Origin: a virus
Virus record (IMG/VR): IMGVR_UViG_3300029286_002355
Location: 1 to 64,000 of that record
Strand: one strand, 5' to 3'
DNA length: 64,000 nt
Shown: positions 7,128-55,485 of the stretch, in pieces
Numbering within the stretch: the first letter of the stretch is position 1
Layout of the letters: every line of letters begins with the position of its first letter
Notes under the pieces: generated by a model
What the model saw: only the letters and a program-made list of their open reading frames with translations
Told to the model about the DNA's origin: nothing
The model's database searches: none
Made by a program: the position numbers and the translations under genes

Positions 7128-7319
7128 TCACTTGATTTTTACTTCGGGAGATTTATCGTTTTCGGTTTCAATATCTTCAAGCAAACACCATGGCGGAAAC
7201 TCTTTTGCTTCGTCTTCTTTTGAAAAATACTTATTGCTCTTCTCGCAAAATCCACCGGCCAAGTAACCAAACTTATGTAGAATACATTGGTGGCAACTTA
7301 ATATGGGTAAATATTTCAT
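7128..7319 (-). CDS. small Cys-rich hypothetical protein
   Basis: CHQC..FCEK..WCLL. Confidence 0.6.
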   Translation of the reverse strand: MKYLPILSCHQCILHKFGYLAGGFCEKSNKYFSKEDEAKEFPPWCLLEDIETENDKSPEVKIK

Positions 7320-7795
7320 TTTATCTCCAATAGTTCTTTTAGTTGTTTAATAGTTATGCTAGAAACATCAGATATCCTACTACCCTTGCATTTACTACAG
7401 GTTACTTTCTTTTCTCCGTTACATTTCCTACATGGCCCATCATAAGACTCTACGCCGTTGGGTGATCCATATTCAAACCATCCCTTAACATGCTCTTTAC
7501 CTTTACCGTTGCAGACATAGCAAGTTTCTTTACCATCTGTACAATCACATTTTTCTTTTCCAATAACTTTTATCGCAAAGTCTTCAGGGTTAAGACTGCT
7601 TTTGACAGGTTCAACTTCTGAAAAATGTATTCCCAAATGACTACCGAACATTAATCCTTCTCCATCAATGGCAATACTTTCTACCTCTTCCTCGTCGCCT
7701 TTATAATGCCATATCTCACCATAAGCATCCCGAATGTCGTGTAGTATTTTAACTGTATCTCCAACCTTATAGGGGTTTTTCTTATGGGGTTTCAT
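7316..7795 (-). CDS. protein with DnaJ-type CxxCxGxG zinc-finger repeats
   Basis: CYVCNGKG, CRKCNGEK, CSKCKGS. Confidence 0.7.
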   Translation of the reverse strand: MKPHKKNPYKVGDTVKILHDIRDAYGEIWHYKGDEEEVESIAIDGEGLMFGSHLGIHFSEVEPVKSSLNPEDFAIKVIGKEKCDCTDGKETCYVCNGKGKEHVKGWFEYGSPNGVESYDGPCRKCNGEKKVTCSKCKGSRISDVSSITIKQLKELLEIK

Positions 7796-7797
7796 GG

Positions 7798-8031
7798 TTA
7801 CTTCTTTTTCTTCTTGGATTCCACCATATCAATCAACAAACTATTTATGGCATAGTCAACCAAGGCATCCTTATCTTCGGTTATTTTTCTAAGTCCATAT
7901 TCGGCAAGCTTATCCATAACCTTTTCGTCTGCCGTAAAATCCACCTTATATGTTTTAGCAGGAATAAACTTGCCAAACTTGATCGAGCCAACAACTCCAC
8001 CTTCATCTACTTTACCTATTTTCTTTTTCAT
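7798..8031 (-). CDS. hypothetical protein (possible ribbon-helix-helix DNA binder)
   Basis: ORF with GGGAG SD directly after pentamer array B. Confidence 0.6.
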   Translation of the reverse strand: MKKKIGKVDEGGVVGSIKFGKFIPAKTYKVDFTADEKVMDKLAEYGLRKITEDKDALVDYAINSLLIDMVESKKKKK

Positions 8032-8047
8032 ATATCTCCCTATTTAA

Positions 8048-8107
8048 AAACCGTGCCTTGCCTTGCCCTGCCTAGCCGCCCCAGTGCTTGCCTCACCGAA
8101 CCTGACC
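8048..8107 (-). ncRNA. GGY-NN pentamer array B (candidate VIPR-type guide RNA)
   Basis: Minus strand GGTCA GGTTC GGTGA GGCAA GCACT GGGGC GGCTA GGCAG GGCAA GGCAA GGCAC GGTTT: 12 units, 10 start with GGY; intergenic. Confidence 0.75.
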
Positions 8108-8110
8108 ATT

Positions 8111-8386
8111 TCATTTTAAAGCTTCACTTGCCACTGGATGTATTCCCGTTCCTTTACACCCACTACAAGGGCAATCATCATAAGGATAAGGATCGGGCTG
8201 TTTACCACTCCCTTGACAGGAAGGACATTTAATAGATGCCAAAGCCTTTCTTAGCTTTTGTATTTCTTCTGTTAGTTTTTTAATTTCTTTTGCTGCTTCT
8301 TCCGCCAAAGGGTCTCCGGGTGACAAATCCAATCCTATTGAACCTGCCTCTACAAGTCTATCAATTAAATCATTGTGAATGCTCAT
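8111..8386 (-). CDS. small protein with coiled coil and CxxCxGxG zinc finger, between the two pentamer arrays
   Basis: CPSCQGSG..CSGCKGTG; ATG follows array A directly and the stop precedes array B. Confidence 0.7.
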   Translation of the reverse strand: MSIHNDLIDRLVEAGSIGLDLSPGDPLAEEAAKEIKKLTEEIQKLRKALASIKCPSCQGSGKQPDPYPYDDCPCSGCKGTGIHPVASEALK

Positions 8387-8387
8387 A

Positions 8388-8447
8388 AAACCGTGCCTTG
8401 CCTTGCCATGCCTCGCAAAAACGCACCTTGCCTAGCCATGCAACACC
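8388..8447 (-). ncRNA. GGY-NN pentamer array A (candidate VIPR-type guide RNA)
   Basis: Minus strand GGTGT TGCAT GGCTA GGCAA GGTGC GTTTT TGCGA GGCAT GGCAA GGCAA GGCAC GGTTT: 12 units, 9 start with GGY; begins 6 nt after the RAMP gene stop. Confidence 0.75.
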
Positions 8448-8453
8448 TCGAAA

Positions 8454-8984
8454 TTAATCAATCTTTTCGAAACTCAACATCTTACTTCTTCCGTAAAGTC
8501 CCTTATTGGCGGGACGGAAATCCATGAGCCCAACTTTCTTACCCATGTCTTCAATCACTTGTTTAACCTGCTCAATATTCATCATGGTTTCATCCCACTC
8601 AATACCAAAAGTAACTTTCCAACTATCAATTCTGGGACGATGACGCATAACTCGCCCCCTTGTTGAAGGAATAACCACAGGCCTCGAATCAACGGAATAC
8701 CTTTCTGTTCCCAAACCAACATATTCTGGCTCAACCATCAAGCAAGCAGCAACAGTTTTTTGAAGAGATGCCCGGCCTTTGCCCTTACTGTATGCAGCGG
8801 CCCCAACTAGTGCTCTTTGAATGTTGATGCCGGGAATATAAAGCTCTCTTGACCCCGGAATTCTATAGGCAGCAATTTCGGCTTGCTCTTCTTTGGGTTT
8901 CTTATCTAATCCTTGAATTGGAGTGTCTGGAAACCGATTCATTAATAGTGCCGAAGTACCTTCTATCGTTACTTTTGCCTTCAT
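8454..8984 (-). CDS. stand-alone RAMP/Cas7-like protein (Vipr-like)
   Basis: N-terminal beta strand VTIEGTSALLMN, LYIPGINIQRALVGAA (RAMP IPGSSxKGAxR-like), C-terminal Gly-rich loop GLMDFRPANKGLYGR; start moved to ATG 8984 after AAGGGAG. Confidence 0.75.
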   Translation of the reverse strand: MKAKVTIEGTSALLMNRFPDTPIQGLDKKPKEEQAEIAAYRIPGSRELYIPGINIQRALVGAAAYSKGKGRASLQKTVAACLMVEPEYVGLGTERYSVDSRPVVIPSTRGRVMRHRPRIDSWKVTFGIEWDETMMNIEQVKQVIEDMGKKVGLMDFRPANKGLYGRSKMLSFEKID

Positions 8985-9003: not shown

Positions 9004-9177
9004 TTAATTTTTCTTGTCAAAAATTCGGCTACAGTTTTTGCATCTTTGATCTACTAAATAATTCCATGCACCTAGTCCATCAACTGAATATTTTTTTGCT
9101 CGACACAATGGTTTACCTTTCATGTCAAAAAAATGGACTTTGTGAGGATCTCTTACTCTTACACTTAGTCCATGCAT
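9004..9177 (-). CDS. 57-aa hypothetical protein (not in the ORF track)
   Basis: GGAG SD, MHGLSVRVRDPHKVHFF..CKNCSRIFDKKN. Confidence 0.55.
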   Translation of the reverse strand: MHGLSVRVRDPHKVHFFDMKGKPLCRAKKYSVDGLGAWNYLVDQRCKNCSRIFDKKN

Positions 9178-9411: not shown

Positions 9412-9450
9412 GGTATACCTATTATAACTGATTCGAAGTATAAATCAATA

Positions 9451-10021: not shown

Positions 10022-10561
10022 CTATTTGCTGACTTCGTTTGCTTCTTTGTTTTCTTCAGGTATTTCAGATTGCAGAATTTTTTCTATGGTTAGTGGGCCT
10101 TCTTCTTTATATTTTTCAATTTGGCGTTGGATTTCTTCTAAGGTAAGTCCATGCCGATTACGTTCAGCTAATTCTTCTGGTTTCTTCCCGCCAGTTCCAA
10201 GATCCACAATTTTTACTTCATAGCCATATTTTAATGCAGCTTCAACATATCGTTTAGAATTCCACGCCCGAATACCAAGATTATCTATGACAATAGGCGT
10301 TCTACCTTCCCGCATGGCATTTATCGCCCTCTTTAGATTATTCTTAGAAACGGCAACCAAAGGAGTGTAATTGTCTTGTTCCTTCATCTTTGCAAAAAAA
10401 GCTATATATTCTTCGTCATTGTTAGAAATAAGATCGTCGGAAGAGAATATATTTTCTGGAACCACTCCGGGTAAATTTCTAGAGGCTGTACTTTTACCAC
10501 TTCCTGAAATTCCACGAAGTAGGAAGAGGATTTTTTTTTGCGATAGCCTATACCAGTTCAT
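10022..10561 (-). CDS. P-loop kinase (AAA_33, polynucleotide kinase-like)
   Basis: LLRGISGSGKST, IVIDNL, RNRHG. Confidence 0.8.
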   Translation of the reverse strand: MNWYRLSQKKILFLLRGISGSGKSTASRNLPGVVPENIFSSDDLISNNDEEYIAFFAKMKEQDNYTPLVAVSKNNLKRAINAMREGRTPIVIDNLGIRAWNSKRYVEAALKYGYEVKIVDLGTGGKKPEELAERNRHGLTLEEIQRQIEKYKEEGPLTIEKILQSEIPEENKEANEVSK

Positions 10562-11854: not shown

Positions 11855-12916
11855 TTAGTTAACAAACGCCTCATTACATTTCGGCATTTGATTTTCTAAT
11901 CTGAGGATATCAGTGTTCCTCTTAGTATTATCTCTGTCTAATACTAAATGACCATTGCCTTCAGTGTTATTCAATAATTCAAATGCCGCTATATTAAAAG
12001 CGGCATTTGAATCCGCATGGTCAGCGTGTCCACAACTAACACATTTGAATACTTTTCCATTCCTGTTTCCTATAACTCCACATCTACTACATTTTTGACT
12101 AGTATATGCAGGATTGATATAGACAACTGGTATTCCTAATATTTTGGATTTGTATTCTATCATGGTTTTAAGCTGATAGAAACTCCAACTATTTAAGGAG
12201 TACTTGAATGACGGTTGTGTTTTCTTATTTCTCTTTTCTCTAATTTGCGTTAAGTCTTCCAACTTAATTCCACAATTATTCTTTTGAGCAACTTGAACTA
12301 TCTTTCTACTAATCTCATGGTTCAAATTCTTAATTCTGTTTTGTTCTCTTCTCTTGATTTTCTTTAGTTGATATTTTGCTCCTTTCTTTTGTAGTTTTGT
12401 TCTCAGGTTCTTATATTTTAAGTGAAGATGATTTGCTTCTTTTCCTAATTTGATAACCTTTTTGGTTTTAGGAATTGCTACAACTGCACAATGACCAGTA
12501 GTATTTAAGTCCACTCCGATATAATCTTTAACTTTCATTTCCTGCTTGTTAGGCACTTCGCAGGAAATATAGCAATAGGTATTATCAACCTCTATCTGAT
12601 TGATTTTAGTGAAGTTGTTTGGAAATTGATATTGAAGCTCTAATTTAATTACTGAAACTTTGATTGTCTTAGTTTCTTGATTTACTTTAATACCTTGGTT
12701 TGGAATGGTTAGTTTAACAGATTTGATTGACTTACACTTTTTGTTCTTTGAATACTTTTTTAGGATTTGGTTAGATATTTGTGACTTTAGACCGAAGTGT
12801 TTTACGTCCTTAGAACTTCTAGATTTTGTTTTGATAGCAAAGGAAGCAATTTTTCTAGCAATATTCAATTCGCTAGAAAAATCTTTGTCGTGCTTCACTT
12901 TGTAGGTTAATATCAT
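11855..12916 (-). CDS. tnpB: TnpB RNA-guided nuclease
   Basis: GVDLN, LEDL, AYTSQKCSRC..CVSC..HADSNAA. Confidence 0.92.
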   Translation of the reverse strand: MILTYKVKHDKDFSSELNIARKIASFAIKTKSRSSKDVKHFGLKSQISNQILKKYSKNKKCKSIKSVKLTIPNQGIKVNQETKTIKVSVIKLELQYQFPNNFTKINQIEVDNTYCYISCEVPNKQEMKVKDYIGVDLNTTGHCAVVAIPKTKKVIKLGKEANHLHLKYKNLRTKLQKKGAKYQLKKIKRREQNRIKNLNHEISRKIVQVAQKNNCGIKLEDLTQIREKRNKKTQPSFKYSLNSWSFYQLKTMIEYKSKILGIPVVYINPAYTSQKCSRCGVIGNRNGKVFKCVSCGHADHADSNAAFNIAAFELLNNTEGNGHLVLDRDNTKRNTDILRLENQMPKCNEAFVN

Positions 12917-27019: not shown

Positions 27020-28150
27020 TTACTCCTTTCCATATGTTAGTTGAAACCTTCGAGAAATTGCCTTAATAGAAAGCCTTCCACCCCTAAGAGCATAACTTGT
27101 CATTTCCTTTACGGGCCTGATGACTACCCCTTCCGCAGGAGTCCCATTCGCATAGTTTTGAGCATCAGCAAATTCAACTAGTTCATCCACGGTCTTCCAT
27201 TTGAAAACTCCAACATAAATAACAGGAACCCTAGGAATATTATGAGTATCGCAGAAAGAAACAAAATCAGCATAGTCAAGATACCTGTGTCCCAAGATGC
27301 TAAATACATCAAAAGCCGCAATTTGAACATCTTTCATTCCCAGTTTGTTTCCTTGGACTCCATTGCCGTAAATTTCACTTTGTAATGCGCTATTTGTTCC
27401 TTTAAGGATATCAATAATGCCATACTTTTTAGTCATGTTCCAATAGGTGTTACCCTCTGTATCCTTTAGCTCAATGTTTCTAGAACATACACCAAAAATA
27501 TGACCTTCGGCAATGTTTTCTGTCTTGCTGTAGGCGGTAAAGCTCGTTCCGTCTATTTTTGTGGTCACATAGACTTCTACTCCCTGAAGCTCTTCAATGG
27601 TTCCGGGATAGGCTTGCACTCGATGTACGTCTGTTTTAATAAGAAATCCGGGGAAGTTCCCTTTCATCAATCCCTTAAGTTCGGCGGGAATATCGGGAGT
27701 ATATTGTGTAACCCCAAAGAACTCTCCGACATCATCATCAACAGAATGAACAGCCTTAGTGATTCCAAGCTTGATTTTGGCTTCCATGTAGGCACAATAT
27801 TTATCATTGTCAATAATAGAAAGGGGCATAGCCAAACCTTGCGAAACTTGGCCCCTCAACTTTACGGTTTTCAATCTAATAGGTTTATCGGGACGGTTCT
27901 TATCAACAAGAAACTCATTCCAAGTATCTTTTTTAAGAATGGAATCTACCTCAAAATAAACGCAAAGATCGCCAACATTGAATTCACCTTTCTTGACTAC
28001 AACTTTCCATCCAAGAACAGAAGCGCATTCAATCTTGTCGGCATTCGGGATAGGATCAAGGGCAGTAACCTTCTGAATGGTTGCGAGATGACGAACCACT
28101 TCAACCTTCTCTTCCACTTTTTCTTTTACTTCTGTAGTATTCTCGTCCAT
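27020..28150 (-). CDS. ATP-dependent RNA ligase, Rnl2/DRB0094 family with N-terminal OB fold
   Basis: LATIQKVTALDPIPNADKIE, TKIDGTS, SEIYG, AFDV, EGVVIR, IKAIS. Confidence 0.88.
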   Translation of the reverse strand: MDENTTEVKEKVEEKVEVVRHLATIQKVTALDPIPNADKIECASVLGWKVVVKKGEFNVGDLCVYFEVDSILKKDTWNEFLVDKNRPDKPIRLKTVKLRGQVSQGLAMPLSIIDNDKYCAYMEAKIKLGITKAVHSVDDDVGEFFGVTQYTPDIPAELKGLMKGNFPGFLIKTDVHRVQAYPGTIEELQGVEVYVTTKIDGTSFTAYSKTENIAEGHIFGVCSRNIELKDTEGNTYWNMTKKYGIIDILKGTNSALQSEIYGNGVQGNKLGMKDVQIAAFDVFSILGHRYLDYADFVSFCDTHNIPRVPVIYVGVFKWKTVDELVEFADAQNYANGTPAEGVVIRPVKEMTSYALRGGRLSIKAISRRFQLTYGKE

Positions 28151-28940: not shown

Positions 28941-30306
28941 GAGCGGAAACCCCGATATCTTTAGTGTCGGGGAGGTAAGCGAGTTACTAACTTACTTTCC
29001 ACTACTCCTTTCTTTAGCCATTATTATACATTAATATCTCCCAAATTCAAGCAAAAAGAAATATTAAAATAATAGAAGGAATTTGTATAATAATTAAAGA
29101 AAGTAATATATATGAAAACATACAATGTTCAACTTGAGTTTCAGAGCGAAGAAGACAAAGATCTTCTTCTCGCTACCTTTGAAGTTCATAAGAATATTTG
29201 GAATTATACCTCTAAATACGTCTTTGCCCATAAACTGAAGGCTTGGGGCAAAGACGTTCACGAAGCTACTTACCACAAATGCAGAAAGAAATTCCCTACC
29301 TCTCCTTCCCAAATTATAATTAGAGCAAGAGAGGATGTTGTAGCTACTTTCAAAACCATAAAGTCTAACAATCATAAGATTGAAGAATGTCCAGTTAAAA
29401 CTCATTATTCAATAAGATTGGACAAGAGGCTTTATACTTTACAAAGGGATTCAATCAAACTAACTACAGTAGAAAAAAGGATAATTTGTAAACTCAAACT
29501 CTATAAGAAACTTGAAGAGTTATTTAAGTATGAGGTTAAAGATCCATTAATTTTTGTTAGAAACAATCAGATTTATTTAGCCTTAACCTTTGATACTCCT
29601 GAGCCTATATTCAATCCCAATCAATGCGTTGGAATTGATTTGGGATTGAATCGTATTGCAGTAACTTCAGAAGGTAAAATAATTTCAGGTAGTAATTACA
29701 TTAGAACCAAAAGAAAAATCAGATATTTAAAGAGATGTTTACAACGCAAGAAAAAATTAAGAGTTAAGAAATCTGATTCAGCAAGAAAACATTTGAGAAA
29801 ACTAAAAAGAAAAGAACTCAATTATTCCAAAAATTATATCCACCATTTGGCTAATGAACTACTTAAAACTAATTGTAATACTTTAGTTTTAGAAGATCTT
29901 AGTTCCCTCAAAGACCATAGCAAAGGAAGATTACAAAATAATAAATTATCTCAAGTTCCATTTTTCCAGTTACTAACAATATTAAAATACAAGGCACAAG
30001 CTCTAGGTAAAAGAGTAGAAACTGTTAATCCTGCTTATACCTCTAAAGATGACTATAGAGGAATTGAAAAAGGCATAAGAAAAGGATGTAGGTATTATGC
30101 ATCAGATAAGGTAGTTCTTGATGCAGACCTCAACGCTTCCATAAATATTGGGAAGCGTTGGGGTGATAAAAATAAACTTCCTGTTTCGTTTGTAGTCCCC
30201 TTAGACGGGAAATACAAACTAAATGGGCAGGCTGTGTGTCAACCAGCCAATCGTTTAGTGCCTTTGACTAGACAAGCCCAGACATCTTTAGTGTCTGGGT
30301 AGTTGA
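28941..30306 (+). mobile_element. tnpB-only IS200/IS605 (IS1341-like) element
   Basis: Left end GAGCGGAAACCCCGATA-TCTTTAG-TGTCGGGG after TTAC; right end CCCAGACA-TCTTTAG-TGTCTGGG-TAGTTGA. Confidence 0.85.
29112..30302 (+). CDS. tnpB: TnpB nuclease (zinc finger absent)
   Basis: GIDLG, VLEDL, PAYTSK, DADLNAS. Confidence 0.9.
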   Translation: MKTYNVQLEFQSEEDKDLLLATFEVHKNIWNYTSKYVFAHKLKAWGKDVHEATYHKCRKKFPTSPSQIIIRAREDVVATFKTIKSNNHKIEECPVKTHYSIRLDKRLYTLQRDSIKLTTVEKRIICKLKLYKKLEELFKYEVKDPLIFVRNNQIYLALTFDTPEPIFNPNQCVGIDLGLNRIAVTSEGKIISGSNYIRTKRKIRYLKRCLQRKKKLRVKKSDSARKHLRKLKRKELNYSKNYIHHLANELLKTNCNTLVLEDLSSLKDHSKGRLQNNKLSQVPFFQLLTILKYKAQALGKRVETVNPAYTSKDDYRGIEKGIRKGCRYYASDKVVLDADLNASINIGKRWGDKNKLPVSFVVPLDGKYKLNGQAVCQPANRLVPLTRQAQTSLVSG

Positions 30307-38150: not shown

Positions 38151-38369
38151 TCATTTTTTCACATCCTCACGGCTAATCAGTATTCGCATGGCTATATTAC
38201 AGGCAAATCCTATGCTCAACAGAACCCAATCAACCCAAGTCAGGTATTTAAACATAAGAAGATTGTAAGGTTTATCCCATACGTGACAGGTACTGGTTAC
38301 GGTTCCTACCAATACAAAAATACCAGTCAAAACAAGTAATATTTCTATCCATATATCAGATTTTCTCAT
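38151..38369 (-). CDS. small membrane protein
   Basis: Two hydrophobic segments. Confidence 0.6.
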   Translation of the reverse strand: MRKSDIWIEILLVLTGIFVLVGTVTSTCHVWDKPYNLLMFKYLTWVDWVLLSIGFACNIAMRILISREDVKK

Positions 38370-39652
38370 TCTTCACCTGCATCTTTCCAAGAAACAAGAG
38401 GAAAAAGTTTGAACAATGGCAATACCAAATCGGCCTCATTAGAAATTACGTCTTCGATATCCTTATAGGCTTGAGGAGCTTCACTAAAATCCATCATACC
38501 CAAGTCCTTTCCCTTACGAGATACAGCCCTGCCATATTTAGTATGATAAACGCCTTCCATTGCTTTTTCTATTTCCTTGATCTTTTCAGGAGTATTGTAT
38601 TCTTGATTAAAGGCATTACGGCCCATTCTACGACCTGCCCCATGAGAACAAGATGACAATGATTCTTTTTGCCCACGTCCCCTTACGATGTAGGAAGCGG
38701 TGCCTTGAGAACCGGGTATGATTCCAATGGTCTTTTCACTTGCCAATGTAGCTCCCTTACGATGAACCCAAATATTTCTTCCAAAATGGTTTTCTATAGA
38801 GGCATAGTTATGATGAATGTTGATGAGATCCTTTACCCCCACTATTTCTCCCGAAGTGTTTTGCATATTAGGGAAGTAATGAAGCAGATTGTCCCAAATA
38901 TCATCCAACATAGCTTTGCGGTTATAGAAGGCAAAGTTAAGGCACATATTCATCCATCCCAAATAAGCCTTTCCTTCTTGGGAAGTAACAGGCAAGAAAG
39001 GAACAGAAGATTGCGAATACCACTCATGATTTATTTTTGCAGCAACATCATTAAAGTGATCGCATACTTTCTTACCTATATTACGGGAGCCAGAATGAAC
39101 CATAACCCAAATGTTTCCATTTTCGTCATATTGGAGTTCTATGAAGTGGTTGCCGCCTCCCAAGGTTCCCATTTGAGAAAAGAAAGCATCGGGTTTAACA
39201 ATCACGGGAACGGAAAGAACATCCAATCTATTTTCTCCCATGCAGAGATGTTTTGTGAGAGCATAATTAATCTTGTCACTGTATTTCTGTTCCATTATCT
39301 TTCGGCGTTGGTCTGTGTTATGCGAAAAGCCCATAGGAATAGCTCGTTCAATAGCATGATGAAGGATTTCTTCTTTCCCTTTAATATCTTGAACAGTAAG
39401 GTTGGTACGGAAAGCACCAAGGCCGCAGCCGATATCGACACCCACGAAGTTAGGAACAACAACACTAGTGCATGCAACAACTCCACCAATTGGCATGCTC
39501 ATTCCCTGATGACAGTCCGGCATCAAAGCAAAATGCTCGACAAATGGGAGTTTAGCAATGGCCTCTATCTGTTCAATAGCTCCCGCCTCAATATCGGAAC
39601 ACCAAGAAAAAACGGGCTTTCCATTCGATAACTTTATTTCCATAGTTTTCAT
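38366..39652 (-). CDS. rtcB: RtcB 3'-5' RNA ligase
   Basis: MPDCHQG, GVDIGCG, GTLGGGNHFIE, HSGSR, HHNY, HRKGA, HGAGR, EAPQAYK. Confidence 0.95.
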   Translation of the reverse strand: MKTMEIKLSNGKPVFSWCSDIEAGAIEQIEAIAKLPFVEHFALMPDCHQGMSMPIGGVVACTSVVVPNFVGVDIGCGLGAFRTNLTVQDIKGKEEILHHAIERAIPMGFSHNTDQRRKIMEQKYSDKINYALTKHLCMGENRLDVLSVPVIVKPDAFFSQMGTLGGGNHFIELQYDENGNIWVMVHSGSRNIGKKVCDHFNDVAAKINHEWYSQSSVPFLPVTSQEGKAYLGWMNMCLNFAFYNRKAMLDDIWDNLLHYFPNMQNTSGEIVGVKDLINIHHNYASIENHFGRNIWVHRKGATLASEKTIGIIPGSQGTASYIVRGRGQKESLSSCSHGAGRRMGRNAFNQEYNTPEKIKEIEKAMEGVYHTKYGRAVSRKGKDLGMMDFSEAPQAYKDIEDVISNEADLVLPLFKLFPLVSWKDAGEE

Positions 39653-40030: not shown

Positions 40031-41405
40031 GAGCGGAAACCCCGACATCTTTAGTGTGGGGGAGGTAAGCGAGTTACTATATCCACTCATCTCCTTTCTT
40101 TAACTTTCTACTATTATACATCTTTAATTCCTGAAATGCAAGAAAATAATCAAAGAAATAAAGAGGAAAAGACTAAATAGTTATAGAAGAACATAATATA
40201 TGAATATCTTAACGTATAATATAAAACTTGAACCGAAAGATAAGGAAGAATATGATCTTCTTTATTCTACACTACTTGAACACCAGAAGGTTTGGAATTA
40301 TATGTCAGAATACGTTTTTAAGTCAAAGAACGTAGATAAACGATTAATCCACGACAAAAATTACCATAAGTGCAGAAAACTGTTTCCCGATTGTCCTTCC
40401 CAAATAATAATTAGAGCCAAGGATTCTGTATTTTCTACCTATAAAACTATTCAATCTAATCATCACAAATTAGAAAAGCCAGCAAAACAAGAAAATCTCT
40501 CTGTTAGGCTTGACAAAAGAATATATACGTTCTTTCCTAATAATAAAATCAAACTAACTACGACAGGAAAAAGAATAATGTGCTCTTACGTTCCCTATTC
40601 TAAATTTCAAGAGATGTTCAATAGATATGCCGTATGTGATCCACTTTTGTTTTTTAAAGACAATCAGTTTTGGCTTTCTGTTTCTTTTGAGGTTAATACC
40701 CCAACTCTTATAGAAAATAGCTGTATTGGAGTGGATTTAGGTATTAAACGGTTTGCAACAACCTCTGAGGGAATTTCTTTTATAGATAGAACGTTCCTTA
40801 AAGAAAAAAGAAAATTGAGATATCTAAAGCGAATCTTACAGTCAAAATCCAAATCTACCTTTTCTCGTTCTGCTCAAAGAAAACTAAAGAACCTTAAGAA
40901 AAGAGAACAAAATAAGAATAAAAATCAAACTCATCTCATTGCTAACAAAATTCTAAACACTAAGTCTAATGTTATTGTTATGGAAGATTTAAGTGGAATT
41001 AAATCTTCTAATAAAGGTAAGAAATTTAATAACAGACAATCTCAAGTTCCTTATTTTGATTTAAGAAGGATACTAACATACAAGGCACTATTGCAAGGAA
41101 AAACAATAGTAACGGTTGACCCTGCTTATACCTCTAAAGATGACTATACTGGTCTTGAACGAGGAATAAGAAGTGGATGCAGATATTACACCTCAGACGG
41201 CAGAGTTTATGATGCAGATTGGAATGCTGCTATAAATATTGCTCAACGTTATTCTATAAGAAAAAGAGTAAAAGGTGTAAAACTCCCTGTTTCGTTTAAT
41301 ATACCTATTGATGGTAAATTAAACCTTATAGGCAAGCCACATCAACTGGCTAATCGTGAGATAAGGTCTCGCAAACCCAATGATCTTTAGTCATTGGGTA
41401 GTTGA
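40031..41405 (+). mobile_element. tnpB-only IS200/IS605 (IS1341-like) element
   Basis: Left end nearly identical to 28941-28990; right end CCCAATGA-TCTTTAG-TCATTGGG-TAGTTGA. Confidence 0.85.
40200..41390 (+). CDS. tnpB: TnpB nuclease (zinc finger absent)
   Basis: GVDLG, VMEDL, PAYTSK, DADWNAA; paralog of 29112-30302. Confidence 0.9.
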   Translation: MNILTYNIKLEPKDKEEYDLLYSTLLEHQKVWNYMSEYVFKSKNVDKRLIHDKNYHKCRKLFPDCPSQIIIRAKDSVFSTYKTIQSNHHKLEKPAKQENLSVRLDKRIYTFFPNNKIKLTTTGKRIMCSYVPYSKFQEMFNRYAVCDPLLFFKDNQFWLSVSFEVNTPTLIENSCIGVDLGIKRFATTSEGISFIDRTFLKEKRKLRYLKRILQSKSKSTFSRSAQRKLKNLKKREQNKNKNQTHLIANKILNTKSNVIVMEDLSGIKSSNKGKKFNNRQSQVPYFDLRRILTYKALLQGKTIVTVDPAYTSKDDYTGLERGIRSGCRYYTSDGRVYDADWNAAINIAQRYSIRKRVKGVKLPVSFNIPIDGKLNLIGKPHQLANREIRSRKPNDL

Positions 41406-54254: not shown

Positions 54255-54497
54255 TCATTTTTCATAAGTTACTGTTCTTTTTCTTTTGGGAACAGGAGCC
54301 GAAGCTTTGGGTTCTTTACACTCGTCTTGATCTAGCGGAACCACGTAAGTATCAACTCCGCAACCGCAACCGCATGTAAAATGAATTATTTTACCTTTAA
54401 TAATTCCTCTTTTGATTCTGGAATTGAGAACTGAGTCTATCCACTTGGACTCTCTCATTTGTTTCCCGCTTAAGAAATACTTATCCGATCTTTTCAT
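54255..54497 (-). CDS. hypothetical protein (CGCGC)
   Basis: Start moved to MKRSDK. Confidence 0.55.
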   Translation of the reverse strand: MKRSDKYFLSGKQMRESKWIDSVLNSRIKRGIIKGKIIHFTCGCGCGVDTYVVPLDQDECKEPKASAPVPKRKRTVTYEK

Positions 54498-55485
54498 CTT
54501 CCTCCTCCACAACAACATGAAACTTATCTATGAATTTCTGTTTAAGATTAATTCCTATAGAAATCTTTTTTGCCCCAACATTCTTAAGCTCTTCCTCCAT
54601 GGTTGAGCCATTCTTGCGAAGAGAGAAGATGATTCCCTTTTCGAAAGCATAAACGGTTTTAGGTATAATGGTAAGCGCAAACTCCTTCTGCTCCTTGATA
54701 TCCTTATGATCTTGGTAAACAGAAGCAATACGGTTTTTGATTTCCGTATAAATACCATCCACAAAAGTAAAGTACGGTTCATCTTCGGGAAAATAACGAA
54801 GATATTCAGGGTGTTCATTTCCCATAATAAGATTTAGGACATTCTTGGGCGAAATATTTCCGTTCTCCCTCATGTGGGCTACGGCAACAAAAGAAGGGTT
54901 CTTTGTTTTAACTCTATGATGAGACCCATTTTCATTTTCAATTACAACCACCACTCCTTCTTGAAGCGTTGGAAAAGATTCTACCAACTTAAATAGCTCG
55001 GCAAAATCCTTACAAACGAAAATTTCTGGGCGATCAACTTCCATCATCCTTGCAACATTATTTAGCTCCGTATTGGAAAGTTCCCGATAGTTGTTGCGCT
55101 CAAGATTGTTCCTGCCACCAATAAGTGTAATTTTGTTTTCCGTATAGGGAGAAACAACCCGGTTTTCTGGCCCCGTAAGCTCGAATACAAGAGTAAATTC
55201 TTTCATTTCTAAAAGTGTAAGAAACTCCTTAAGACCTGTTTTCTTTTCAGCATCCCAAAATACTTCGGCAAAAGTTCTTCCTAGATTGGTTTGTCCCTCT
55301 GCGAAAGCCATTTTTCGAGTAGCTACGCACCACTTCTCTCCGTCAAAATAAAGCGAAAGCAGAGAGTTATGAACCAGCATATCGTTTGCAAAATAATTTT
55401 CGGTAGTAGTTTGCAAATCATAGCGTTTTGACTTACACTCTACCTTCTTAATCAATTTTATTTTGGCGAGCATAGGTTTACCCAT
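54481..55485 (-). CDS. split intein C-fragment plus C-terminal half of an Rnl1-type RNA ligase
   Basis: YDLQT..NYFANDMLVHN/S then SLLSLY, FEL..PENRVV, EGVVV, VKTK. Confidence 0.9.
   Translation of the reverse strand: MGKPMLAKIKLIKKVECKSKRYDLQTTTENYFANDMLVHNSLLSLYFDGEKWCVATRKMAFAEGQTNLGRTFAEVFWDAEKKTGLKEFLTLLEMKEFTLVFELTGPENRVVSPYTENKITLIGGRNNLERNNYRELSNTELNNVARMMEVDRPEIFVCKDFAELFKLVESFPTLQEGVVVVIENENGSHHRVKTKNPSFVAVAHMRENGNISPKNVLNLIMGNEHPEYLRYFPEDEPYFTFVDGIYTEIKNRIASVYQDHKDIKEQKEFALTIIPKTVYAFEKGIIFSLRKNGSTMEEELKNVGAKKISIGINLKQKFIDKFHVVVEEEDEKIG

What the first reader, a model, noticed from the sequence alone, without database searches (positions are those of the whole stretch)
8048..8447. 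The two arrays split into 8 variable units and 4 constant units, a readable target code
Seen: NN strings are array A = GT AT TA AA GC TT GA AT | AA AA AC TT and array B = CA TC GA AA CT GC TA AG | AA AA AC TT. The last four units are identical and the first eight differ, like a constant handle plus a 16-nt variable message. Unit 6 lacks GGY in both arrays. Inference: the variable dinucleotides specify two different discontinuous targets, and equal length suggests a ruler set by protein stoichiometry. I could not search for targets by eye.
Basis: partly seen in the sequence, partly recalled or inferred. Interest (0 to 1): 0.75.

Follow-up and report, generated by a model that had tools for sequence, protein, structure and literature searches.

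The report
Phage VIPR guide-RNA arrays
The two 60-base five-letter repeats are almost certainly the guide RNAs of a VIPR system, a CRISPR-like, RNA-guided DNA-silencing weapon of phages first described in 2026.

Summary
On the minus strand, 8447..8388 (A) and 8107..8048 (B) are each 12 phased GGY-NN units. Nothing similar occurs elsewhere in the 186-kb phage record.

The gene just upstream (8984..8454, 176 aa) is a Vipr protein. It matches the solved SUSP1 Vipr, keeps the GG-binding residues, and its model has a Cas7/Csm3 fold. Its homologues in 80 viral loci carry 169 such arrays, 167 of them on the vipr strand, with near-random NN.

This fits the VIPR systems published in 2026, where NN dinucleotides pair with DNA while skipping every third base. 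The "protein ruler" idea is not supported.

I could not find the targets. There is no self-target, and exact 8-unit matches in IMG/VR are no more frequent than reversed-pattern controls.

Local peculiarities:
- There is no structured 3' tail.
- Both arrays abut start codons.
- Guide A and its downstream zinc-finger gene recur, with all 8 NN identical, in a diverged lake-phage relative.

This scan has found VIPR arrays before on other DNA, so this is a new member of a known kind.

The parts
8454..8984 (-). vipr gene: 176-aa RAMP/Cas7-like Vipr protein. The ATG at 8984 is the likely start; the longer TTG ORF begins at 9020.
   Evidence: phmmer hit to PDB 36pp_D 'SUSP1 Vipr protein', E 2.3e-5. 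hhalign of the family profile against a Felixounavirus Vipr gives prob 96.6%, E 6.3e-10 over the full length. The AF2 model has pLDDT 87, and Foldseek's top hits are Csm3/Cas7, E 6e-8. There are 855 homologues of ~176 aa.
8388..8447 (-). vrRNA A: 12 GGY-NN units, NN = GT AT TA AA GC TT GA AT AA AA AC TT. It starts 7 nt after the vipr stop and ends 1 nt before the ATG of the next gene.
   Evidence: An orthologous array with the same first 8 NN is found in L252.
8111..8386 (-). 91-aa protein (P0002): N-terminal helical part plus a DnaJ-type CxxCxGxG zinc finger. It is a candidate accessory (vap-like) gene.
   Evidence: Pfam hits are sub-threshold only: Anti-TRAP PF15777 E 7e-4 and DnaJ_CXXCXGXG; phrog_6060. 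A 57%-identical homologue sits directly behind the orthologous array in L252. It is absent from the other held vipr loci.
8048..8107 (-). vrRNA B: 12 GGY-NN units, NN = CA TC GA AA CT GC TA AG AA AA AC TT. It starts 3 nt after the P0002 stop. The SD-like GGGAGA and the ATG at 8031 follow.
   Evidence: Its first 5 units (CA TC GA AA CT, including the odd GCA scaffold) recur inside an array of relative L254.
8388..8407 (-). Constant 3' block of vrRNA A (ggcAA ggcAA ggcAC ggtTT). The identity with B extends over 8413..8387.
   Evidence: The same block continues into different units in another contig of the same lake (loose end at 8072).
8048..8067 (-). Constant 3' block of vrRNA B (ggcAA ggcAA ggcAC ggtTT). 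The identity with A extends over 8073..8047.
7798..8031 (-). 77-aa protein (P0001) directly downstream of vrRNA B, of unknown function.
   Evidence: No Pfam or PHROG family. There is one weak tblastn match near vipr in L260, E 5e-4.
9421..9448 (-). Sigma-70-like promoter match (TTGATT-16-TATAAT). It is a possible start of the operon orf74-orf57-vipr-vrRNA A-P0002-vrRNA B-P0001.
   Evidence: This is a consensus match only, and such matches are no more frequent here than in shuffles.

Best explanation
The locus is a VIPR (Viral Interference Programmable Repeat) system of an uncultured lake-water phage.

Inferred mechanism: the minus-strand operon is transcribed through vipr and both arrays. Each array yields a guide RNA (vrRNA) of 12 GGY-NN units. 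By homology with the solved SUSP1 complex, one Vipr protomer binds each unit, sequesters the GGY bases and presents the NN bases. The NN bases pair with a double-stranded DNA target read as NNxNNx..., skipping one base per unit, and the bound filament silences transcription of a competing mobile element.

Units 1-8 carry the specificity. The shared 3' block (AA AA AC TT plus a U run) takes the place of the structured tail of the published type II vrRNAs.

Shown here:
- the array anatomy and its uniqueness in the genome;
- Vipr homology, conserved contact residues and fold;
- clade-wide linkage of vipr with same-strand arrays that have near-random NN.

Inferred only: expression and processing of the RNAs, DNA binding, the identity of the targets, and the role of the 3' block.
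For: Array anatomy and uniqueness.

Vipr identity:
- PDB 36pp_D 'SUSP1 Vipr protein', E 2.3e-5.
- R128, D167, F168 and R169 align to the SUSP1 residues R138, D177, W178 and R179, which contact G1/G2/Y3 (alignment, residue roles).
- The full-length profile match to a Felixounavirus Vipr has prob 96.6%. In it SUSP1 H17 aligns with N16 here, and my reading of the alignment is that most family members have H there.
- The AF2 model (pLDDT 87, pTM 0.83) hits Csm3/Cas7 of type III-A and type VII complexes, E 6e-8, prob 1.00.

Linkage:
- 80 IMG/VR loci with homologues hold 169 distinct arrays, 167 on the vipr strand and mostly abutting the gene.
- The closest metagenome relatives carry same-strand arrays just downstream of vipr, many of 10-14 units.
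- Interior NN entropy is 3.89 of 4 bits.

Other points:
- There is no self-target in the 186-kb record at gaps 0-2, as published for natural systems.
- The arrays show no significant RNA structure of their own (z 0.19 and -0.90) and no Rfam family. This fits an RNA that is held extended by protein.
- The orthologous array in L252 keeps all 8 guide dinucleotides while 7 of 24 scaffold bases differ.
Against: - No target was found. Exact 8-unit, 1-skip matches in IMG/VR number 43 loci for A and 9 for B, against 58 and 3 for the same patterns read backwards. Hits do not extend beyond chance, mostly do not put the skipped base at the codon wobble position, and lie in phages unrelated to this one.
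- Neither guide matches any held vipr locus above shuffled guides.
- There is no RNA evidence.
- There is no structured 3' tail or pseudoknot, unlike type II vrRNAs.
- No accessory gene is shared with the clade.
- Three of 12 scaffolds in A and two in B are not GGY. Published vrRNAs also show internal degeneracy.
Confidence: 0.85

Rival explanations
1. The arrays act mainly in cis as translational or mRNA-stability operators. Vipr coats the array within the polycistronic mRNA, directly in front of the start codons at 8386 and 8031, and so controls the two small downstream genes, in the way the TRAP ring works on (G/U)AG repeats. Any trans DNA targeting would be secondary or absent.
For: Both arrays end 1 nt and 17 nt before a start codon. 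For P0002 the only SD-like sequence (AAGG) lies inside the array. Array A and the P0002 gene are conserved together as a module in L252, again with GGTTTTATG. Many relatives have arrays ending just before AGGAG..ATG. P0002 has a weak Anti-TRAP/DnaJ zinc-finger match.
Against: The binding protein is a RAMP homologous to a protein shown to use such RNAs as DNA guides. No TRAP (TrpBP) family protein was seen among the neighbours scanned. A pure operator would not need near-random NN across the clade. The Anti-TRAP hit is below threshold and is explained by the generic CxxCxGxG finger. The two roles are not mutually exclusive.
Confidence: 0.08
2. The arrays are decaying or orphaned remnants of once-longer VIPR arrays. 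They are no longer functional guides and persist as intergenic filler.
For: Five of 24 scaffolds are not GGY. No target was found. The arrays are short compared with many relatives, which reach 93 units.
Against: An intact vipr gene with conserved contact residues lies 7 nt away. Twelve units is the length of the vrRNA solved by cryo-EM, and published vrRNAs are also internally degenerate. The eight guide dinucleotides of A are identical in a relative whose Vipr is only 69% identical, while the scaffold changed. The locus is identical in three lake-water data sets, two of which may be the source of this DNA.
Confidence: 0.05
3. It is a structure-forming element with no guide role at the RNA level. 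Examples are a two-tetrad G-quadruplex tract (GG-N3)n, or a DNA-level protein-binding repeat such as an origin, packaging or promoter element.
For: The GG runs are spaced by 3 nt over 60 nt, and the position is intergenic.
Against: The strand is strictly that of the adjacent vipr gene in 167 of 169 arrays. The third scaffold base is constrained to a pyrimidine, which a G-quadruplex does not require. The element always accompanies a RAMP gene. Published work shows such tracts are transcribed and bound by Vipr.
Confidence: 0.02

Closest known systems
VIPR systems (Vipr + vrRNA +/- vap), reference type II loci of Escherichia phage SUSP1 and a Pseudomonas fulva prophage (bioRxiv 10.64898/2026.04.26.720920, 10.64898/2026.04.26.720927, 10.64898/2026.10.15.759431)
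   Same: A small RAMP protein with the same GG-binding residues. GGY-NN pentanucleotide arrays of 12 units lie on the same strand beside the gene. NN is hypervariable across the clade. The system is phage-borne and shows no self-targeting.
   Different: Vipr is only distantly related: only the C-terminal third aligns by plain sequence search, and the full length aligns only by profile. There is no invariant structured tail or pseudoknot; the 3' end is three more repeat-like units with fixed NN plus a U run. No vap1 homologue is present, and the neighbouring gene is a DnaJ-type zinc-finger protein seen in only one relative. The arrays abut start codons. Targets are unknown. I could not assign the locus to one of the seven published types.
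Class 1 CRISPR-Cas backbone proteins (Cas7/Csm3 of type III-A and type VII effector complexes)
   Same: The predicted fold is an RRM core with a thumb and a glycine-rich loop (Foldseek E 6e-8). One protomer binds per short RNA segment, and bases are flipped out at a fixed period.
   Different: There is no CRISPR repeat-spacer array, and I saw no cas1/cas2, Cas10 or large-subunit gene among the neighbours I annotated. The period is 5 nt with 3 bases sequestered, instead of 6 nt with 1 flipped. The guide is non-contiguous.
TRAP (trp RNA-binding attenuation protein) and its (G/U)AG-NN repeats
   Same: An RNA site built from about a dozen triplets separated by 2-nt spacers, lying in front of a start codon. 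This was my first working analogy.
   Different: The triplet is GGY, not GAG/UAG. No TrpBP-family protein was found. In TRAP the spacers carry no information, whereas here they are the guide. This is an analogy of layout only.

Membership tests
VIPR system | A Vipr protein (stand-alone RAMP homologue with an RRM core, thumb and G-loop) is encoded at the locus. | tested here: met
   The 176-aa ORF at 8984..8454 matches PDB 36pp_D SUSP1 Vipr, E 2.3e-5. hhalign against a Felixounavirus Vipr gives prob 96.6%. The AF2 model matched against the PDB gives Csm3/Cas7, E 6e-8, prob 1.00.
VIPR system | The residues that read the GGY scaffold (SUSP1 H17, R138, D177, W178, R179) are conserved. | tested here: met
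   R128, D167, F168 (aromatic for W) and R169 align. H17 aligns with N16 here, and my reading of the alignment is that most family members have H there. R116, P117, D146, G148, G152 and P158 are invariant, and F156 and R157 nearly invariant.
VIPR system | vrRNA genes consist of tandem 5-nt GGY-NN (YNNGG) units, 9-16 per RNA, beside vipr on its strand. | tested here: met
   There are two arrays of 12 units, 7 nt and about 350 nt downstream of the vipr stop, on the same strand.
VIPR system | Across related loci the scaffold is conserved and NN is hypervariable. | tested here: met
   169 distinct arrays in 80 homologue loci, 167 on the vipr strand. Interior NN entropy is 3.89 of 4 bits.
VIPR system | The arrays are expressed as discrete small RNAs that co-purify with Vipr. 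| not testable with these tools
   No RNA run is listed for this DNA. Only DNA contigs of lake-water metagenomes hold it.
VIPR system | Natural targets match the guide under the 1-nt skip rule (at least 80% of NN) and are absent from the phage's own genome. | tested here: inconclusive
   No self-target exceeds shuffled guides. IMG/VR exact 8-unit matches are at control level: 43 against 58 and 9 against 3. There are none in the held vipr loci. With only 16 informative bases and an unknown host, the search has little power.
VIPR system | An accessory vap gene lies in the operon. | tested here: inconclusive
   No neighbour has a homologue in 80 IMG/VR loci. The zinc-finger gene P0002 recurs behind the orthologous array in one relative, L252. 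The paper notes that some Vipr genes stand alone.
VIPR type II (SUSP1 / P. fulva clade) | An invariant 3' tail with conserved secondary structure (a pseudoknot) follows the repeat tract, and vap1 is present. | tested here: not met
   The sequences after the last GGT share only a U run. Folding is no better than shuffles and there is no Rfam match. No vap1-like gene is shared. I therefore do not file the locus under type II.
CRISPR-Cas | A repeat-spacer array with identical direct repeats of 25-40 nt, plus adaptation and effector cas genes. | tested here: not met
   TRF and repeat scans find only the 5-nt period. The neighbours are small unknown ORFs, an HNH protein and a kinase-like ATPase.
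TRAP / anti-TRAP regulon | A TrpBP-family ring protein and (G/U)AG triplet repeats. | tested here: not met
   The triplet is GGY. No TrpBP hit was found among the neighbours. The Anti-TRAP hit of P0002 scores 20 bits against a cut-off of 32.

The most novel reading that the evidence does not exclude
This clade may represent a tail-less VIPR variant with two unusual properties.

First, the vrRNA would double as the 5' leader of the next gene. Vipr loading on the array would then both make a DNA guide and throttle translation of a dedicated zinc-finger partner (P0002), which would be a new kind of accessory protein.

Second, guide A would be kept identical between phages whose Vipr is only 69% identical because it is aimed at a conserved host or common-competitor site, not at a fast-changing rival.
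Probability: 0.2. Interest if true: 0.55.

Novelty: new member of a known kind. Interest (0 to 1): 0.35.

Why it matters
VIPR is a very recent discovery, a non-contiguous RNA-guided DNA recognition code thought to predate CRISPR. Its natural diversity has so far been charted mostly from NCBI records.

This locus adds a member from an uncultured lake phage of at least 186 kb, belonging to a large metagenomic Vipr clade (855 homologues). It has minimal 12-unit vrRNAs without a structured tail, which bears on what caps or terminates the Vipr filament.

It also offers a natural pair of orthologous guides in which all 16 guide bases are kept while the scaffold drifts. That is a useful natural experiment on which positions are under selection.

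It is also worth recording that a reader working from sequence alone derived the essentials of the published code.

Tried and rejected
**Working ideas dropped**
- My first ideas were a TRAP-like ring-protein site and a G-quadruplex tract. I dropped both once the neighbouring gene proved to be a Vipr/RAMP homologue.

**Searches for relatives that gave nothing**
- blastn of the region against the phage collection found no match.
- A single-protein search of IMG/VR found no close relative. The alignment-based search did work.

**Target searches**
- Own genome at gaps 0, 1 and 2: nothing above shuffled guides. The gap-3 hit is the array itself.
- IMG/VR exact 8-unit patterns with reversed-pattern controls came out at chance level.
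- The best-looking hit is in T4-like contigs (L144, L149, L153, L162). It matches 18/18 over 9 units, just 3' of the DNA polymerase gene and over a TATAAT-like site. I judged it to be chance: it comes from unrelated phages and its extension is as expected for random hits.
- The B hit cluster L177-L183 lies in a 227-aa ORF, but with the skipped base at codon position 2.
- No candidate locus is related to this phage.
- No target was found among 213 held loci, including about 160 vipr loci.

**Search for further orthologues of guide A**
- A 5-nt-register pattern gave 0 hits in IMG/VR and 18 in prokaryote genomes. None of the 18 had a GGY scaffold, so all are chance.

**Host inference**
- The DnaE-like polymerase has no phage relative above 39% identity, and there are no tRNAs in the window.

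**Other**
- No RNA holder is listed for this DNA.
- The contigs laid show no variation inside the arrays.
- The 17-mer GGCAAGGCAAGGCACGG is terminal in about half and internal in about half of its occurrences in other viral arrays, so it is not by itself a terminal signal.

Full report
**What is there**

The window is the first 64 kb of a 186,119-bp IMG/VR virus record. It is about 82% complete and 36-37% G+C, and its genes lie almost all on the minus strand.

Read on the minus strand, 8447..8388 and 8107..8048 are each twelve 5-nt units of the form GGY-NN.
- A = ggtGT tgcAT ggcTA ggcAA ggtGC gttTT tgcGA ggcAT ggcAA ggcAA ggcAC ggtTT
- B = ggtCA ggtTC ggtGA ggcAA gcaCT gggGC ggcTA ggcAG ggcAA ggcAA ggcAC ggtTT

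The identity actually spans 27 nt with one mismatch.

A four-unit GGY pattern occurs 6 times, all inside the arrays, against 0.03 expected. In the whole 186 kb, windows scoring 6/12 or more phased GGY all lie at the two arrays, which reach 9/12 and 10/12.

Both arrays are intergenic. A starts 7 nt after the stop of a 176-aa ORF and ends 1 nt before the ATG of a 91-aa ORF. B starts 3 nt after that ORF's stop and is followed by GGGAGA and the ATG of a 77-aa ORF.

**How the reading changed**

I first took the layout for a TRAP-like protein-binding site. An exact 17-mer from the constant block then turned up in 52 IMG/VR contigs, nearly all of which carry long NNGGC arrays. So this is a widespread phage feature.

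The scan's earlier notes named the VIPR systems. I read the three preprints myself. They report the following:
- VIPR is a phage-borne system of a small RAMP protein (Vipr) and vrRNAs of 9-16 GGY/NN repeats.
- One Vipr protomer binds each repeat and sequesters GGY.
- The NN bases pair with double-stranded DNA while every third target base is skipped.
- Binding silences transcription of rival phages, satellites or prophages.

**Membership tests**

*Protein.* The ORF upstream of array A (8984..8454) matches the solved 'SUSP1 Vipr protein' (PDB 36pp_D, E 2.3e-5).
- In that alignment R128, D167, F168 and R169 stand at the positions of SUSP1 R138, D177, W178 and R179. The structure paper names these as the contacts of G1, G2 and Y3.
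- A profile of 36 family members aligns over its full length with the Vipr of a Felixounavirus (hhalign prob 96.6%, E 6.3e-10). SUSP1 H17 falls on N16 here, and my reading of the alignment is that most family members have H there.
- An AlphaFold2 model (mean pLDDT 87, pTM 0.83) finds Csm3/Cas7 subunits of type III-A and type VII CRISPR complexes as its best structural matches (E 6e-8, prob 1.00).

*Family size.* The family is large: 855 homologues, mostly 175-180 aa.

*Linkage.* In 80 IMG/VR loci that encode a homologue I called 169 distinct arrays. Of these, 167 lie on the vipr strand, mostly directly before or after the gene.
- Their interior NN have 3.89 of 4 bits of entropy.
- The last three units lean towards AA (26-38%).
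- In the closest metagenome relatives (60-73% identity) the arrays downstream of vipr are often 10-14 units long and often end in ggtTT followed by T-rich sequence, as here.

*RNA properties.* The arrays have no Rfam match and no structure beyond shuffled controls.

I conclude that this is a VIPR locus. I do not assign it to type II, because the structured invariant tail and vap1 are missing.

**Targets**

This is the part I could not settle.
- *Own genome.* Under the published 1-nt skip rule neither guide has a match in the phage's own 186 kb above shuffled-guide expectation. The same holds for gaps 0 and 2. This agrees with the published absence of self-targeting.
- *IMG/VR counts.* The exact 8-unit patterns hit 43 (A) and 9 (B) loci. 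The same patterns read backwards hit 58 and 3, so there is no enrichment.
- *IMG/VR hit quality.* The hits fall into groups of redundant contigs, extend into flanking units no better than chance, mostly do not place the skipped base at the wobble position, and come from phages that share nothing with this one.
- *Other vipr loci.* Neither guide matches any of about 160 held vipr loci, so there is no sign of anti-VIPR targeting among those.
- *Power.* With 16 informative bases, an unknown host and only exact matching available in the public collections, this test has little power. It neither supports nor refutes the code at this locus.

**Local peculiarities**

- *Orthologous guide A.* A metagenome relative (L252, Vipr 69% identical) has an array directly in front of a 57%-identical homologue of the zinc-finger protein P0002, again ending GGTTTTATG.
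  - Its first eight NN are GT AT TA AA GC TT GA AT, identical to guide A.
  - 7 of 24 scaffold bases differ, one unit has an extra base, and the 3' units are GC AT GA GA instead of AA AA AC.
  - That all seven substitutions fall in scaffold positions has a hypergeometric probability of about 0.02. This is my own rough calculation from those sequences.
  - The eight units that differ between A and B inside this phage are therefore the ones conserved between phages. This is what one expects of a guide kept on a common target.
- *Guide B.* Its first five units, including the odd GCA scaffold, recur inside an array of another relative, L254.
- *Constant block.* It is shared by A, by B and by a third, different array in another contig of the same lake. 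This fits a handle specific to this lineage. The 17-mer is terminal in only about half of its occurrences elsewhere.
- *Accessory gene.* No accessory gene is shared across the clade. P0002 is a candidate partner on the strength of one relative only, and its Anti-TRAP Pfam hit is below threshold and reflects the generic CxxCxGxG finger.

**Environment**

The DNA is held by lake-water metagenomes, two of which may be its source. No RNA run is listed.

- The idea of a constant scaffold with a discontinuous dinucleotide code is right in kind, by membership in a family where it was shown experimentally.
- The 'ruler by protein stoichiometry' is not supported. The RNA sets the number of protomers, and array lengths vary (published 9-16 units; 5-19 in the closest relatives).

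**Novelty**

This is a new member of a known, very recently described kind. The scan has reported VIPR arrays on other DNA several times before.

Noticed in passing
L252:1399-1734 (ENA metagenome contig OFOH01000107.1): A relative whose Vipr is 69% identical carries an array with the same eight guide dinucleotides as array A but a drifted scaffold. The array directly abuts a 57%-identical homologue of the zinc-finger gene P0002. A 71-aa zinc-ribbon-like ORF is inserted between vipr and the array.
   Followed up: partly
L010, L018, L038 and other loci: In GC-rich viral contigs long NNGGC arrays are punctuated about every 11 units by GGCAGGC, a 4-nt unit that shifts the register. This looks like the 'staggered arrays with 1-nt overlapping vrRNAs' mentioned in the VIPR preprint.
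   Followed up: no
L124:3620-4809: Thirteen consecutive arrays of 12-19 units follow a vipr homologue. Nearly all are closed by a near-constant tail (AAGGAATGGT TTAATGAATTTAAT). This is a much larger guide repertoire than in the window.
   Followed up: no
window 8048-8072, lake-water run X2 (loose end at 8072): Another contig in the same lake shares the constant 3' block of array B and then continues into entirely different GGC-NN units. This is a third vrRNA with the same handle, in a co-occurring strain or phage.
   Followed up: no
window 7316-7795 (-): A 159-aa protein two genes downstream of array B also carries DnaJ-type CxxCxGxG zinc-finger repeats (sub-threshold Pfam hits). This is a second such protein in the same operon.
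   Followed up: no
window 11855-12916 (-), 29112-30302 (+), 40200-41390 (+): Three ORFs match the PHROG transposase family phrog_506 (the third is inferred from its equal size and was not scanned). The two 396-aa ORFs are not identical copies.
   Followed up: partly
window 10022-10561, 27020-28150, 38366-39652, 54481-55485 (all -): A cluster of RNA-repair-type genes is spread over the window: a polynucleotide-kinase-like ATPase, an RNA ligase, an RtcB tRNA-splicing ligase and an Rnl1-like ligase. This suggests the phage counters host tRNA-cleaving defences.
   Followed up: no
G000:C1:135802-138738 (-): The phage replicates with a DnaE-like (Pol III alpha) polymerase whose best phage relatives are below 40% identity. 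There is no close cultured relative and no host assignment.
   Followed up: partly
L144:2614-2636 (T4-like contig, 173 kb): Guide A matches 18/18 bases over nine units under the 1-skip rule, just downstream of the DNA polymerase gene and over a TATAAT-like promoter. I judged this to be chance, but it is the best single hit.
   Followed up: partly
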